Positions 9,429 to 64,000 are shown, counted from the first letter of the stretch. The stretch is DNA of 64,000 nt from Scenedesmus sp. PABB004 (GCA_014905635.1 JABVCE010000007.1:1054001-1118000), one strand, 5' to 3'. The notes: generated by a model not told the origin, from the sequence alone. Made by a program: numbers and translations.

Positions 9429-12352
9429 TCACGCCCGCGGCGGGCGGTGGTCGCCCTCGCCCGGCTGCGGCGAGTACTCGCCGCGCGCCGCCGCGCTGGC
9501 CTTGGCCAGCTCCTGCAGGTACAGCGCCTCCATCTCCGGCAGCTTCAGCGAGCCCTGGCACAGCGCAAAGAGCGGCATCTGCGCGCGGCCGCGAGCGCAG
9601 CGGCACCGCGTGAGCGGCAGCGTCGCGCGGCGCCGCATGCCAGCGCCGCAACGGGCCCGCGCGCCACAGCCGCGGCCGAGGCTGGCCCAACCCGCGCCTC
9701 GCCCGTCGCCGTTTGCCACACGGCACGGCACGCACGCGCCACGCTGCCTTACCTGCAGCGCCGCCGACCAGCTGAACGAGAGGTTGACAGGGAACGTGCC
9801 CTTCTTCTGGTTGAGCGCACTCAGCCGAGCGCAAGCGTCACCCAGGCTCTGCCCGCCGGACAAGAAGTTGGCGCTGCGCACCGCCACGGGCATCACGCGG
9901 CGGAAGACGTCGATGTTGGCCTGCGCCGCCGCGCAGCAGCGCAGGGAAGAGGAGGGGTTCAGAAGGAGGTGACGCGCGGGCACGGCGGCGTGCAACGCAG
10001 CAGGGGGAACCCCGTCCAGGGCGCCCACGCAGGGCTGGGCTCGGGCGCGCCGCCGCCGCGCTGTCCTACCTGCGCAATCTCGTCCACGGTGTAAGCCACG
10101 GGGCAGGCCTTGCCGGGGTTGACCTGCGGCCGGGGTTGAACGGCGGGCGCAGCGGCGCTGCTGTGCGTGCAGCCGCGAGTGGGCTGCGCACCCGCGGGCG
10201 CGATGCTGCAGCCAGGTCGGGAGCGACAAAGACCTAGCTTTCAAGCTGCTAAACCCTCTCAAGCCCGCGCGCACCAGGTTGCTCTTGAGGACGACGCCCT
10301 CCATGAAGACGCCATGCTCCAGCAGCGCCCTGCGTGCGGCGGCGTGCAGCGGGGTGCGAGGCGCACAGCGCAGCACCTGCAGCGGCGCCCTGGCTCGCTG
10401 GGGCGCCTCGCTGCTGCACGGCGGGGCGCCTCGCTGCTGGCGCCCAGGCCCTGGGGGAGCCACGCACAAGCGGCGCAGGCGCCACCCAGGCCCCACCACC
10501 CGCTGCCGCCGGGCGCGCTTGGCGCGCCAGCGCCCGCGCCCGCCGACCACCGACCGCGGTGCCTGGCGAGGCGCACCGGTAGAGGACGGACTGAATTTTG
10601 GTGTTGATGGCCACCGCAGACTCCAGCGTGTGCGTGCCGGCCATGGAGACGTCGGGCTCGACAATCGGCACCAGGCCCACGTCCTGTCCCGAGTGCGTGC
10701 GTGGTGGTGTGAACGGTCAGCCAGGCGCGCGCGCGAGCCCAGCGCCGCCGCAGGTGTCGTGTCCCCGGTGGCGGCGCCGCCCAGCGCGGCCAGGCAGCCC
10801 GCATGCCCGCGAGCCGCGCAGCCAGCGCACGCGTGCCATGCTCCCCCAAACCCTGAGCCCACAGCGTCACGCCCGCTGCCAGCACCCACCTGGCAGATGA
10901 GCGCGTAGCGCGCCAGGTCTTGCATGTTGGCTTCAATCACAAAGTCGCTCGGCTGGCCGTTTGCCTCGTCGATGGCCAGCGGGCTGCGCCACTTGGCAAA
11001 CACCGCGCCGGCGGCCTTGTACTCAGCGAGCCGCGCCGCGAGCGAGTCGAGGCCCTGCGCCGCGCGGCGGCGGCAGGCGCGCCCCCCACGCAGCAGGCGG
11101 CGGCCGTGACCACGCGCAGCGCGGGCCCGGCGCGGTGCTGGCGGGGGAGCCTCGCCCCGCCCTGCCCGCGCGGGGGCTGCGCGGGCGCGCCTGCATGGTC
11201 GTCGACCCGCGCTGACCGGGCAGGGCGTAGACCTTGAGGTGGGGCTTCACGCCTGGCCGGCGGCGGGCGCGGCGGCGGCGGGCGCGGCGGCGGCAGCGGC
11301 GGCAGCGGCGGCGCGTGAGCAGGCGCGGCGTTGGCGGCGGCCGCGGCGGCAGCGTGCGAGCGGGCGCAGCGGCTGCAGGAGCGCGCCCGGCACGCTGCCG
11401 GCTGCCCGTCTGCCACCCGCCCGCCCGCCTCGCTCGGCGCGGCGCGGCGCCGGCCCTCAGCGCAGCTCGTCCTCGGGCTCGGCTCGGCGCCGCCCAGGTC
11501 GGCTCACCGGGCAGGATGCCGAGCGCGTGCAGGCGCTCGGGGAACAGCGGCGTGCCCTCGCTGCTGGAGCGCTGGTAGAGGGTCTCCGGGTCCAGGATGG
11601 CAGCGCACAGGTACTGCACGGGAGGCCGGGCGGGCAGGGAAGGTGGGCCGGGCCGGCCGCGCGCCCGGGGGGCCGGCAGGGCGGGGGTTGTGTTGGAGCG
11701 GCGCGCACCTGGTTGGCGCTGGGCGCCTCAAACAGCATCTGCCGGTACGCACGGCGGTTCTGCGGGCGCAGCGGTGGGTGCGTCGCCGCCGCACTCCGAG
11801 GCCCCCGGCGCGCGCGCGCGCCCGCGGCCGTCCCGCGCCGGGGGCGTGCCGCGTGGCCGCAAGCGGCGGCCCCTGCCGCGGCCGCACCTCCTCGCTGTTC
11901 TCGATGCCATACTTGGCAAAGCGGTCGCCGATGGTGCCGGGGCCCTCGTCGCACGCGGTGATGCCCTTGCCGCGCTGCGCGATGTGCTCCGCGACGCCCT
12001 CGAGCTCCGCCTTGCGCGCCTTGCTCAGGTGCGCGCCGTTGTGGCAGCTGCGGGGCGCGCCGCGGCGGCGAGGGGCTCACGGGCCGCGCAGCCCGGCGCC
12101 AGCGCGCCGCGCAGGCCGGCGCGCAGCGCGCCCGCACCTGTGGAAGAAGGGCGCGGCGGCGGCGGCCCGCGCGCGCACGGCGACGCGTGCAGGTCGCGCG
12201 GCGCACGTGCGCTGCGGCGAGGGCAGCGGCGGGCAGCGCGGTGAGGGCGGTGGCGGCCGCTGCGCGCGGCGGCACCGGCGCCGGTGGCACCGGCGGTGGC
12301 TGCGCGCCTCAGCCCACACCTGAGCGCTGAAAGACCTGGCCTGAAGCTGCAT
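9429..12352 (-). CDS. FBA: Divergent class I fructose-bisphosphate aldolase-like protein with plastid transit peptide (multi-exon)
   Basis: Spliced motifs KGITACDEGPGTIGDRF, NRRAYRQMLF, AILDPETLYQ, FAKWR, LARYALICQ, GLVPIVEPD, EGVVLKSNLV (Schiff-base Lys), FLSGGQS, LSFSWSAALQ. N-terminus MQLQARSFSAQRTCAARPARVAVRA. Confidence 0.88.
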
Positions 12353-61600: not shown

Positions 61601-64000
61601 CCTTCTCGGCGAGCTGGTCCACGCCGACGTTGGACGGCGCGCACACGAGCACCTGCGCGGCCGCCCCGGCGCCCGCCGCGGCGCGCGCTCAGCGCGTGCT
61701 CGGCGCGGCGCCGCCGCGCGCGCTCGGCGCGCCGGCGCCGCGCTGCGGTGCGTGCGGGCGGCGGAGGCGCGTGCGCGCGCGCCGCCGCGCCTGGCTGCCG
61801 GCGGTGGTGCAGAGGTGGTACACGATCGTCGCCGACGTCACCGTCTTGCCCGTCCCCGGCGGGCCCTGGATGAGCGAGAGGGGCTGCTGCAGCACGCTGC
61901 GCACCTGCGACGCGGCGGCACGCCGCCAAGGGGCGGGCGGCGTCAACGGGTTTCGAGCCCACGCGGCGCGGCGCGGCGCGGCGCGGCAGGCGGCGGCGGT
62001 GGGCCGCGCGCGCGCGCACCGCGTGCAGCTGGCTGTGGTTGAGCTCGGGCAGCCCCGGCGCGGAGAACGACCCCGCCGGCAGCGGGATGCGCAGCGTGAT
62101 CGGCTCGACCTGCGCGCCGCGCGGCCGCACGCGGCGCGCACGTCGGCGCGGCGGCACGCAGCGCGCGCAGCAACATGCGCAACCCTCCGCACCCGTCGGC
62201 CCCTAAACCGCCGCCGCCGCACCACACACACACACACACACACACACACACACACACACACACACACACACACACACACACACACACACACACACACACA
62301 CACACACACACACACACACACACACACACACACACACACACACACACACACACACACACACACACACACACACACACACACACACACACACACACACACA
62401 CACACACACACACACACACACACACCTCGTGGCCGAGCAGCACGTGGAAGAGGTAGCCGCTGATGGAGGGTGAGTAGTCCCTGAACAGCTTGAGCGCGGA
62501 GGCCATGCGGTCGTGGCTGGTGCCCTTCCACACAAACTCGAGCGCGTAGCCGACGGTCGTGTCCTCCGGCACCTCGGGGCGGTCCATCTCCAGGCACACC
62601 TGAGCGGCGTGAGGGTGTGCGAGTGTGGTGGGTGTGGGCGGGTGTGTGGGTCGGTGGGTGGGCGTGAGGTGGGTGGGTGTGTGTGGGGGGCGCGTTGCGG
62701 CGTCCGGGTGCGGCGCGCGCGGCGGTGCACCTCCTCGCTCGCGCCGCGCGTGGTGATGACGTGCCCGGTGCCCTCCCAGGGCGGCCGCCCCGCGGGGCAG
62801 CGGTGGCGCAGGCGCAGCTCGTCGCCCATCATCAGCTTCACCTCCACGTCGTCCTGCGTGCGTGGGTGGGTGGGTGGGTGTGTGTGTGTGTGGGGGGGGG
62901 GGGCAGGCGGCGGGGCGGGGCGAGGCTGCGCGGGGCAGCGCGCGGCGCGCCGGGCGGCGCCGCGCCGCGCAGCGCAGGCCGCGGCCGCCGCGCCGCCACC
63001 AAACACAGGCACACCCACACCCGCACACAGACACACCCACCCACCCACACAGACAGACACACAGGTGCACAGACGCACAGACAGGCAGACAGGCACAGAC
63101 AGTCGCGCCTGTGGGAAGAAGAAGTAGGCGAGCTTCTTCTTGTTGAGCCCCACGTCCCAGCGCAGCGTGATGCCCTCGCGGCGCTGCGCCTCCTTGCTCG
63201 CGCGGTCGTAGTCGGCCTCGAGCTTGATCAGCGGGCGGAACACAGACTGGGGGGGGGGGGTGGGGGGGGGGGGGGGGGGGGCAGAGGGTGAGCGGGTGTC
63301 GGTGTGCACTTTCAGCGAGGCGGCGCGGGCGTTGCGGCGCGGCGGCCGGGCCACCCGCGCGCAACCCCCGGCGCCGCCGACGCGCTGGCATCCCCCCCCC
63401 CCCCGCCCATCAGCGATCAGCGATCAGCGCGCACCGAGTACTGCGCCGCGTCGTCGTAGCGCAGCACGACCGGCGTCGCCGACGACGCGGGCTCCTCGCC
63501 CGCCGCGTCGAGGTCGTCCGCGCGCGCCTCGGGCCGCGCCTTCCACAGCTCCTCGAGCGCCGACACCTGCTGCGGCGTGAGGCGGCGGCCGCGCGCGCGC
63601 TCCTCCTCGCCCGGGTGCTTGACCATCCAGCTCACAAACTGGCGGTCCTCGATGATCGGCTGCCACTGCGCGGAGCACGCAGAGCACGCACGCAGAACAC
63701 GCACGCACGCGGCGCACGCGCGGCGGCGGACGGGCGGCCCAGCGTCGCGCGAGGCGCGGCGCGTGCGCGCGCGCCCGCGCGCCGCCGCCGCCGCCGCGGC
63801 AGCAGCGCCCCGTGCGCCCGCGCCCCGCCGCCGCGGCCGTGCGCGCCGCGCCTGTGTCATGTCGACGCCGAGGTCGCGCACCGCGGGCGCGCTCGGCGGG
63901 GTGTCGCGCGCGAGCAGCACCACCGTGTTGTCGCACGCCTGCGCGGCGGCGGCGCGGGCGCTCGGCGCGGCACGCCGCCGCCGCCGCCGCCGCAGCGGCC
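58648..64000 (-). CDS. UPF1: UPF1/NAM7 nonsense-mediated-decay RNA helicase, 5' part outside window
   Basis: [109 protein letters not shown]-rich tail. Confidence 0.97.
62224..62425. repeat. (GT)~101 on the UPF1 sense strand, beginning at the intron donor itself
   Basis: Exon ends ..CACGAG at 62426; the intron starts GTGTGT. Confidence 0.97.

What the first reader, a model, noticed from the sequence alone, without database searches (positions are those of the whole stretch)
11190..63851. GC-AG introns are a major intron class, with an AG|GCGCG donor consensus
Seen: conserved proteins can only be spliced in frame using GC donors. First intron bases: 11190, 14174, 14390, 20656, 21093, 24269, 24595, 26783, 29474, 31988, 32778, 33186, 39669, 41971, 42938, 44178, 44649, 46510, 53499, 54565, 56885, 59865, 60164, 60686, 61508, 61790, 63108, 63851 (28 sites, 7 in UPF1). 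Every one follows exonic AG and most read GCGCG. Many GT donors read GTGCG. My rough count is 20-25% of introns in 9.4-64 kb. Established: GC-AG is about 1% of introns in most eukaryotes and normally needs a near-perfect U1 match (GCAAGT), which GCGCGC is not. Inference: 5' splice-site recognition may be rewired (variant U1/U6 snRNA, altered U1C/Luc7/Prp8, or reliance on exonic AG).
Basis: partly seen in the sequence, partly recalled or inferred. Interest (0 to 1): 0.8.

Follow-up and report, generated by a model that had tools for sequence, protein, structure and literature searches.

The report
Frequent GC-AG introns in GC-rich alga
About a third of the introns in this extremely GC-rich green-algal DNA start with GC instead of the usual GT, always directly after an exon ending in AG; this is real, but the same thing is already known from other GC-rich algae.

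Summary
All 28 listed positions read AG|GC on the coding strand, and 25 read AG|GCGCG. The evidence is gapless alignment to orthologues, continuous Pfam profile positions, or continuous numbering in a solved structure. One site (20656) has an in-frame GT alternative. Ten sites are plausible but untested.

In the three genes checked intron by intron, 14 of 40 introns are GC-AG. An ab initio parse gives 35 of 99, of which about 25 are credible.

GC donors always follow exonic AG (18 of 18), against 10 of 26 GT donors (p = 1.5e-5). Both classes share the intronic G-Y-G-C-G and make the same number of pairs with a standard U1 5' end (4.8 vs 5.0). An ordinary spliceosome with exonic compensation, acting under extreme GC pressure, explains this without rewiring.

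No RNA data and no whole genome were available, so splicing itself is inferred and the U1/U6 genes were not seen. High GC-AG shares are published for Emiliania huxleyi and pelagophytes. This is a new member of a known kind.

The parts
63666..63851 (-). UPF1 GC-AG intron (CAG|GCGCGG...CGCAG)
   Evidence: Exact map of P0001. Junction MTQ|WQPI is gapless in 10 orthologues.
62854..63108 (-). UPF1 GC-AG intron
   Evidence: FPQ|DDVEV is gapless in 9 of 10 orthologues; the tenth carries its own insertion.
61653..61790 (-). UPF1 GC-AG intron
   Evidence: [11 protein letters not shown] is gapless.
61377..61508 (-). UPF1 GC-AG intron. The real acceptor is at 61377; the deposited model uses 61348.
   Evidence: The deposited model lacks 10 aa that all orthologues have. 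The frame VAHLDL continues after CAG at 61377. One base is missing between 61357 and 61358, and a contig of run X1 carries it.
60558..60686 (-). UPF1 GC-AG intron (CAG|GCACGC)
   Evidence: A contig of X1 covers 60572-60820. All its differences lie in the intron at or below 60677, and none at the GC donor or in the exon.
60010..60164 (-). UPF1 GC-AG intron
   Evidence: FLQ|AGVLP is gapless.
59687..59865 (-). UPF1 GC-AG intron
   Evidence: AFQ|GREKDY is gapless.
56885..57063 (+). SF3B4 GC-AG intron (AAG|GCGCGG)
   Evidence: The upstream exon matches human SF3B4 residues 70-114 and the downstream exon 115-183.
54565..54718 (+). SpoU-type methylase, proposed GC-AG intron (untested)
   Evidence: Ab initio parse. 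The upstream exon ends at SpoU profile position ~29. No PDB hit for either flanking exon.
53499..53623 (+). Separase GC-AG intron
   Evidence: Peptidase_C50 profile 303-378, then one split codon, then 380-395.
46510..46599 (+). Separase N-terminal part, proposed GC-AG intron (GCGAG; untested)
   Evidence: Ab initio parse only.
44649..44767 (+). UPF0220/TMEM50 proposed GC-AG intron
   Evidence: Ab initio parse. The downstream exon starts at UPF0220 profile position 99 at its first residue.
44178..44290 (+). UPF0220/TMEM50 proposed GC-AG intron
   Evidence: Ab initio parse. Residue 2 of the downstream exon matches profile position 22.
42775..42938 (-). M16 peptidase GC-AG intron
   Evidence: [18 protein letters not shown] is gapless in 10 orthologues.
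41772..41971 (-). M16 peptidase GC-AG intron (phase 2)
   Evidence: Gapless in 10 orthologues.
41264..41408 (-).
   Evidence: Gapless in 10 orthologues.
39560..39669 (-). M16 peptidase GC-AG intron (AAG|GCGCGC)
   Evidence: Gapless in 10 orthologues.
33186..33283 (+). Signal peptide peptidase GC-AG intron (GAG|GCGCGC)
   Evidence: Orthologues read RLLFPRxPGGxGE|AADFPF. The window gives this only if the C run at 33160-33163 has one more C. My parse's alternative donor at 33181 gives a model two residues shorter than the nearest orthologue (three shorter than most).
32778..32902 (+). Signal peptide peptidase GC-AG intron
   Evidence: VGLRSF|RTAALLL is gapless in 10 orthologues.
31988..32103 (+). 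Signal peptide peptidase GC-AG intron
   Evidence: QQINMKE|GLLAPV is gapless in 10 orthologues.
29388..29474 (-). DHHC gene, proposed first intron (GCGAG; untested)
   Evidence: The frame reads [15 protein letters not shown]| before it. My parse did not predict it.
26697..26783 (-). Cytochrome P450 GC-AG intron
   Evidence: p450 profile positions extrapolate to 57|58 across the junction. Both exon matches are weak on their own.
24402..24595 (-). Zinc-finger gene, proposed GC-AG intron (untested)
   Evidence: The frame reads METPVCDLCGRGANAELE|. My parse did not predict it.
24109..24269 (-). Zinc-finger gene, proposed GC-AG intron (untested)
   Evidence: Ab initio parse.
21093..21239 (+). Sedolisin (S53) GC-AG intron. 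The deposited model P0290 reads through it as 49 extra residues.
   Evidence: All 10 homologues lack the 49 residues and align gapless, QQMTVQ|GQTVIVASG.
20656..20740 (+). Sedolisin intron with an ambiguous donor (GC at 20656 or GT at 20644)
   Evidence: The deposited model uses 20644, and the homologues vary here.
14310..14390 (-). Proposed GC-AG intron in a gene of no recognised family (untested)
   Evidence: Ab initio parse. No Pfam hit.
14070..14174 (-). Proposed GC-AG intron in the same gene (untested)
   Evidence: Ab initio parse.
11055..11190 (-). Class I aldolase, proposed GC-AG intron
   Evidence: The downstream exon aligns from its first residue to aldolase chain residue 131 and to Pfam position 113. 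The 20-aa upstream exon could not be aligned.

Best explanation
These are ordinary major-spliceosome (U2-type) introns whose second base is C instead of T. They are common because the genome is under extreme pressure towards G and C: the window is 77% GC and the checked introns are 85% GC.

A T-to-C change at intron position +2 removes one base pair with the 5' end of U1 snRNA. The change is tolerated only where the exon ends in AG, usually CAG, because the pairs at -2 and -1 (and often -3) make up for it.

Where the exon ends in AG, C and T at +2 behave almost as interchangeable. Where it does not, T is obligatory.

The rest of the donor, G-Y-G-C-G-(C/G), and the acceptor, (C)GCAG|G, are the same in both classes.

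Shown here: the sequence, the exact junctions demanded by protein homology, and the context rule. Inferred: that these junctions are spliced in RNA, that U1 is standard, and that mutation bias or biased gene conversion is the driver.
For: 1. Junctions fixed without reference to splice motifs. 18 GC and 26 GT donors were placed by gapless alignment to orthologues, profile positions or a solved chain. None has another canonical placement.

2. Context rule. AG at -2/-1 occurs in 18 of 18 GC donors and 10 of 26 GT donors (p = 1.5e-5). C at -3 occurs in 14 of 18 GC donors.

3. Equal pairing budget. The mean number of Watson-Crick matches to the standard donor consensus (recalled: CAG|GTAAGT) is 4.83 for GC and 4.96 for GT.

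4. Same intronic consensus in both classes. At +3/+4/+5, G/C/G occurs in 17, 18 and 18 of 18 GC donors, and in 25, 23 and 23 of 26 GT donors. Acceptors, intron lengths (median 141 vs 128 nt, p = 0.16) and intron GC content (0.855 vs 0.853) are also the same.

5. Near-neutral +2 in AG context. 18 of 28 AG-context donors are GC, against 78% expected from intronic C/(C+T); the difference is not significant (p = 0.11). In non-AG context the count is 0 of 16 (p = 4e-11).

6. Independent DNA. A metagenome contig (run X1) keeps the GC donor at 60686, while 9 substitutions and an 11-nt deletion fall inside that intron and none falls in the exon.

7. Precedent. High GC-AG shares in GC-rich algae are published and attributed to GC content. 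The rest of the donor consensus is known to compensate for C at +2.

8. In the less GC-rich flank (72% GC), my parse finds donors CAG|GTAAGG and CAG|GTAGGA. Donor composition therefore follows local composition.
Against: - No transcript evidence. No RNA run is on record for this sequence, so removal of these introns is inferred from protein conservation only.
- U1 and U6 were not seen: there is no genome and no snRNA in the window. 'Standard U1' is an assumption.
- With a standard U1, positions +4 (C) and +6 (C) are mismatched in both classes. Every donor here is therefore weak by animal or plant standards, and something else must help recognition.
- The 7-mer is not sufficient. On the sense strand of the gene regions, 25 AGGCGCG are donors in my parse and 27 are not (14 in exons, 13 in introns or UTRs). 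There are 21 on the antisense strand, so decoys are not depleted.
- The sample is one 64-kb window. Only 3 genes were checked intron by intron, and 10 of the 28 listed sites are untested.
- The neutrality statement rests on 28 donors.
Confidence: 0.8

Rival explanations
1. Rewired 5' splice-site recognition. U1 and/or U6 snRNA, or U1C/Luc7/Prp8, have changed in this lineage so that G-Y-G-C-G is the cognate donor and C at +2 is read as well as T.
For: Both donor classes carry C at +4 (41 of 44) and mostly C or G at +6. These mismatch a standard U1 (U1 sequence recalled). In AG context, GC is the majority form, 18 of 28. Half of the sense-strand AGGCGCG motifs are not used, so recognition needs more than this motif.
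Against: If C at +2 were read as well as T, GC donors would not need exonic AG. Yet 0 of 16 non-AG donors are GC, while GT donors do without AG in 16 of 26 cases. That asymmetry is what an A opposite +2 predicts. Donors GTAAGG and GTAGGA occur in the lower-GC flank (parse only). No snRNA or protein factor could be inspected.
Confidence: 0.12
2. Artefact. The C at +2 is an assembly or base-calling error for T, or the exon boundaries are misplaced and the real donors are nearby GTs.
For: The assembly does contain errors. Two one-base deletions break reading frames in conserved exons (61357/61358 and the C run at 33160-33163). At 20656 an in-frame GT donor lies 12 nt upstream. GC dinucleotides are so common at 77% GC that one can be found near any junction.
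Against: The errors seen are single-base deletions, not C-for-T substitutions. 18 junctions are fixed to the codon by homology, with no alternative canonical placement. 17 of these 18 carry the same 7-mer, whose background rate is 83 per about 109,000 strand positions. An independent contig keeps the GC at 60686. The deposited UPF1 model uses the same seven GC donors.
Confidence: 0.03
3. The GC-AG introns are a recently spread family of mobile 'introner' elements, or U12-type introns, and not ordinary introns that drifted from GT to GC.
For: Introner elements are known (recalled) from some GC-rich algae. The introns here are short and look alike at both ends.
Against: An all-against-all BLASTN of 99 parsed introns gave only 3 weak low-complexity pairs and no family. 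The donors lack the U12-type motif (recalled: ATCC at +3 to +6) and instead share the GT class's G-C-G. Length and composition equal those of the GT introns.
Confidence: 0.02

Closest known systems
GC-AG majority in Emiliania huxleyi (haptophyte, 65% GC)
   Same: GC donors are a major class: 56% of 241 hand-mapped junctions and about 60% by RNA-seq, with 9 confirmed by RT-PCR and Sanger sequencing. Acceptors stay AG. The authors attribute this to high genome GC content, and GT-only gene predictors mis-model the genes (PMC4028052; passages read).
   Different: The lineage differs (a chlorophyte, by the label of the identical UPF1 protein), and GC content is far higher (77% in the window; 78.5% for the genome so labelled, PMC12571836 table). 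The share seen here is lower, about 30%. The strict exonic-AG rule is measured here. I did not see it stated in the passages I read; the paper's logos are figures that I could not see.
GC-AG introns of pelagophytes (Aureococcus anophagefferens, Pelagomonas calceolata)
   Same: 14-17% of introns are predicted GC-AG and this is attributed to high GC content; a low-GC relative has 0.32% (bioRxiv 10.1101/2024.10.30.620910; passage read). The share is described as 'approaching 40%' for A. anophagefferens in PMC3167603 (passage read).
   Different: Those are stramenopiles with few introns per gene, and the figures come from gene predictions. Here the genes are intron-dense (15 introns in the UPF1 part inside the window), and the junctions were checked one by one against orthologues.
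Ordinary U2-type GC-AG introns of animals and plants (about 1%)
   Same: C at +2 weakens the U1 helix and the rest of the donor consensus compensates (PMC3167603; passage read). GT-AG makes up about 98% in animals, fungi and plants (PMC7072748; passages read).
   Different: In those organisms the intronic part (recalled: GCAAGT) also compensates. Here the intronic part is the same weak G-C-G-C/G as in GT donors, and only the exon end compensates. The frequency is about 30 times higher.

Membership tests
U2-type GC-AG intron | Intron begins with GC and ends with AG | tested here: met
   All 18 homology-fixed GC introns do, and no other canonical placement exists.
U2-type GC-AG intron | The rest of the donor resembles the GT-AG donors of the same genome | tested here: met
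   +3 G, +4 C and +5 G in 17-18 of 18 GC donors and in 23-25 of 26 GT donors.
U2-type GC-AG intron | Compensation for the +2 mismatch by stronger consensus elsewhere | tested here: met
   AG at -2/-1 in 18 of 18 GC vs 10 of 26 GT donors, p = 1.5e-5. The pair counts are equal.
U2-type GC-AG intron | Removal from the mRNA shown by transcripts | not testable with these tools
   No RNA run is listed. Only protein conservation across the junctions is available.
U12-type (minor) intron | Extended conserved donor motif (recalled: ATCC at +3 to +6) and minor-spliceosome snRNAs | tested here: not met
   Donors read GCGCG or GCACG. The snRNAs could not be searched.
Introner elements | Introns form sequence families | tested here: not met
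   3 weak pairs among 99 parsed introns. This covers one window only.
GC-rich algal genomes with a high GC-AG share (E. huxleyi, pelagophytes) | High nuclear GC content together with GC-AG at well above 10% of introns | tested here: met
   Window GC is 0.77. 14 of 40 checked introns are GC-AG. The genome-wide share is not testable.

The most novel reading that the evidence does not exclude
The 5' splice-site reader of this lineage has itself changed, through a variant U1 5' end, a second U1 species, or altered U6/Prp8/U1C. Under this reading G-Y-G-C-G is the cognate donor and position +2 is a free pyrimidine. That would make this alga, among the most GC-rich nuclear genomes described, a natural experiment in which the near-universal GT rule is being given up.
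Probability: 0.12. Interest if true: 0.75.

Novelty: new member of a known kind. Interest (0 to 1): 0.45.

Why it matters
1. Annotation. Gene finders that prefer GT donors will mis-model about a third of the introns in genomes like this one. The window shows it: one deposited model reads through the GC-AG intron at 21093 as 49 spurious residues. The same was reported for E. huxleyi.

2. Mechanism. The data give a clean quantitative rule: C at +2 is allowed if and only if the exon ends in AG, and within that context C and T are near their mutational ratio. This turns 'GC-AG needs a stronger site' into a testable pairing-budget model. It also extends the link between GC content and GC-AG share from haptophytes and stramenopiles to a green alga. 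A gradient across its relatives (57-71% GC) could be measured.

3. I found no paper that reports this for this organism or its relatives. The search for 'PABB004' returned 15 papers, none on splicing by title or abstract. 'GC-AG' with 'Scenedesmus' returned 2 unrelated papers. 'GC-AG' with 'green alga' and 'splice', and 'GC-AG' with 'Chlamydomonas', returned listings with none on the subject by title. Subscription journals are not covered.

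Tried and rejected
- Whole genome: none is held. There could be no genome-wide donor table and no U1/U6 search.
- Rfam on the window: no match.
- RNA evidence: no RNA holder is listed for 54001-64000. The only holder is one DNA metagenome run with a small share of words.
The part 57440-62200 was laid instead. Most of the 58 laid contigs are short pieces that run on unlike the window, and only a few pieces are from a close relative.
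- Orthologous donors in relatives: the metagenome scan with UPF1 returned 80 loci. By their uninterrupted matches at 49-68% identity these are mostly intron-free or belong to other eukaryotes, and I did not analyse them further. The GT-to-GC history of individual introns is therefore untested.
- My first ab initio parse merged everything into giant genes. It became usable after harsher penalties and retraining. It still joins neighbouring genes (for example 'introns' 24917-24402, 29851-29388 and 34010-34651) and GC donors that do not follow AG, one of them wrong (33181).
- PDB search with the 20-aa aldolase exon gave only chance hits. PDB searches with the two SpoU exons gave nothing.
- Pfam on the exons flanking 14174/14390 and on the ORFs of 1-8.6 kb gave nothing.
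- The six-term literature search listed only papers without 'GC-AG' and is uninformative.
- Earlier findings of this scan: three look-ups returned nothing.

Full report
What the window is. It is 77% G+C overall and about 80% from 12 kb onward. It carries intron-rich eukaryotic genes on both strands: class I aldolase, a sedolisin, a P450, a DHHC protein, signal peptide peptidase (SPP), an M16 peptidase, UPF0220/TMEM50, separase, a SpoU-type methylase, SF3B4 and UPF1. A UPF1 exon is 100% identical to a protein that NCBI labels 'UPF1 [Scenedesmus sp. PABB004]'. A published table gives that genome as 39.8 Mb, 78.5% GC and 7,092 genes (PMC12571836; table passage read). No whole genome is held for the window, no RNA run is listed for it, and Rfam finds nothing in it.

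Checking the observation: the motif alone. All 28 coordinates are the G of a GC that directly follows AG on one strand. 25 read AG|GCGCG. That alone means little, because AGGCGCG occurs 83 times on both strands of 9.4-64 kb. I therefore fixed junctions by evidence that does not use splice motifs.

UPF1. The deposited protein maps exactly onto the minus strand with 15 introns inside the window. In an alignment with 10 orthologues (algae, transcriptome-derived sequences, land plants), six GC junctions are gapless within conserved blocks. At the seventh (61508) the deposited model lacks 10 residues that every orthologue has. The sequence shows a normal acceptor at 61377 followed by VAHLDL in frame. 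One base missing between 61357 and 61358 breaks the frame. A contig of metagenome run X1 carries exactly that extra base. The donor at 61508 stands, while the deposited acceptor at 61348 is a workaround for an assembly error.

M16 peptidase. My model was aligned with 10 orthologues. Thirteen GT junctions are gapless too. Two junctions in variable regions (43455 and 40318) were left out of the counts.

Signal peptide peptidase. The junctions at 31988 and 32778 are gapless in 10 orthologues. At the third, my parse chose 33181, which gives a model two residues shorter than the nearest orthologue (three shorter than most).

Single sites fixed by other evidence:
- Separase 53499: Pfam positions run 378, one split codon, then 380.
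- P450 26783: profile positions extrapolate to 57|58, from two individually weak exon matches.
- SF3B4 56885: human SF3B4 residues run 114|115.
- Sedolisin 21093: all 10 homologues are gapless, while the deposited model P0290 reads through the 147-nt intron as 49 Arg/Ala-rich residues.

Totals. In all, 17 of the 28 listed sites and one new site are fixed. None of the 44 homology-fixed introns has another GT/GC..AG placement that gives the same mRNA.

Sites not settled. Site 20656 has an in-frame GT donor 12 nt upstream, which the deposited model uses, and the homologues vary there. For 11190 only the acceptor side is exact. Nine sites rest on my parse or on reading the frames.

How common the class is. 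In UPF1, M16 and SPP together, 14 of 40 checked introns are GC-AG (35%). My own gene parser was trained on UPF1 and retrained on the window. It gives 64 GT and 35 GC among 99 introns between well-scoring exons. It reproduces 22 of the 28 listed sites in that filtered set and 25 of 28 in the full parse. Ten of its 35 GC calls do not follow AG and lie in low-complexity stretches or between genes, and one of them (33181) is demonstrably wrong.

Anatomy of the donors. Among the homology-fixed donors, all 18 GC donors follow AG and 14 of them follow CAG. Only 10 of 26 GT donors follow AG (Fisher p = 1.5e-5), although 23 of 26 have G at -1. Inside the intron the two classes are alike. G, C, G at +3, +4, +5 occur in 17, 18 and 18 of 18 GC donors and in 25, 23 and 23 of 26 GT donors. 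Acceptors ((C)GCAG|G), lengths (median 141 vs 128 nt) and GC content (0.855 vs 0.853) do not differ. The introns form no sequence family: there are 3 weak pairs among 99.

How it most likely works. Counted against the standard donor consensus that pairs with the U1 5' end (recalled), GC donors make 4.83 Watson-Crick pairs on average and GT donors 4.96. The pair lost at +2 is bought back at -2, and usually at -3. Splitting by context sharpens this. Of 28 donors after AG, 18 are GC; this does not differ significantly from the 78% expected from the C:T ratio of introns (p = 0.11). Of 16 donors not after AG, none is GC (p = 4e-11). Position +2 thus behaves as a nearly free pyrimidine when the exon ends in AG, and as an obligatory T otherwise. 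This is what a standard U1, with an A facing +2, predicts under strong GC pressure. If the machinery read C as well as T, the AG requirement would not be specific to GC donors.

What stays open in the mechanism:
- The splicing itself is inferred, because no RNA is available.
- U1 and U6 were not seen.
- With a standard U1, +4 C and +6 C are mismatches in both classes, so all donors here are weak.
- On the sense strand of the gene regions, 27 AGGCGCG motifs are not donors in my parse against 25 that are, with no depletion relative to the antisense strand (21). Other information must therefore contribute, such as short introns or the strong acceptor.
I therefore keep a rewired reader as a minor rival (0.12).

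Errors as an explanation. The assembly does have errors, but the two I found are one-base deletions (61357/61358 and 33160-33163), not C-for-T changes. An independent contig of X1 covering 60572-60820 keeps the GC at 60686. All of its 9 substitutions and its 11-nt deletion fall inside that intron and none in the exon. This also marks the exon-intron boundary independently.

Comparison with what is known.
- GT-AG makes up about 98% of introns in animals, fungi and plants (PMC7072748; passages read).
[quoted passage not shown] - A recent preprint gives 14-17% for two pelagophytes and 0.32% for a low-GC relative.
- In E. huxleyi about 60% of donors are GC, confirmed by RNA-seq and Sanger sequencing, and GT-biased models were wrong (PMC4028052; passages read).
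The present case is thus the same phenomenon in a new lineage and at a higher GC content. I found no paper reporting it for this organism or for Sphaeropleales. The library does not cover subscription journals, and I opened no supplements.

Verdict. This is a new member of a known kind, of moderate interest. Its main value is the clean context rule and its consequences for annotation.

Noticed in passing
window 61357-61358 (- strand exon of UPF1): One base seems to be missing from the assembly, which breaks the UPF1 frame (VAHLDL|PGAEVF). A contig of run X1 has the extra base. The deposited protein model skips 10 conserved residues by using a false acceptor at 61348.
   Followed up: yes
window 33160-33163 (+ strand exon of signal peptide peptidase): A run of four C would need a fifth for the exon to read RLLFPRAPGGVGE as the orthologues do. 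This is probably a homopolymer deletion in the assembly.
   Followed up: partly
window 21093-21239: The deposited sedolisin model (P0290, 654 aa) reads through this 147-nt intron, which is stop-free and a multiple of three. This adds 49 Arg/Ala-rich residues that all 10 homologues lack.
   Followed up: yes
window 1-9400: This stretch has lower GC (59-72%) than the rest. It has long ORFs on the minus strand with no Pfam match, and two arrays of the same 91-bp tandem repeat (1433-2047, 6.8 copies; 3982-6169, 24 copies).
   Followed up: partly
window 27505-28197 and 34036-34728: A 693-nt inverted repeat, 99% complementary, with arms 5.8 kb apart. It brackets the DHHC, coiled-coil and signal peptide peptidase genes.
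   Followed up: no
window 13254-13721; 57289-57441; 62223-62425: Long microsatellites: (GCC)x157 inside an open frame (a poly-Gly/Ala run in my parse), (GT)n in an SF3B4 intron, and (CA)x101 in a UPF1 intron.
   Followed up: no
window 30033-30129 (-): ARAGORN calls a 97-nt tRNA-Pro(GGG) inside what my parse treats as a coiled-coil protein gene. Rfam did not report a tRNA there, so it may be a false call.
   Followed up: no
window 9579-10069 (-), 3' part of the aldolase gene: In the less GC-rich flank my parse finds donors CAG|GTAAGG and CAG|GTAGGA in place of GTGCGC. The intronic part of the donor seems to follow local base composition.
   Followed up: no
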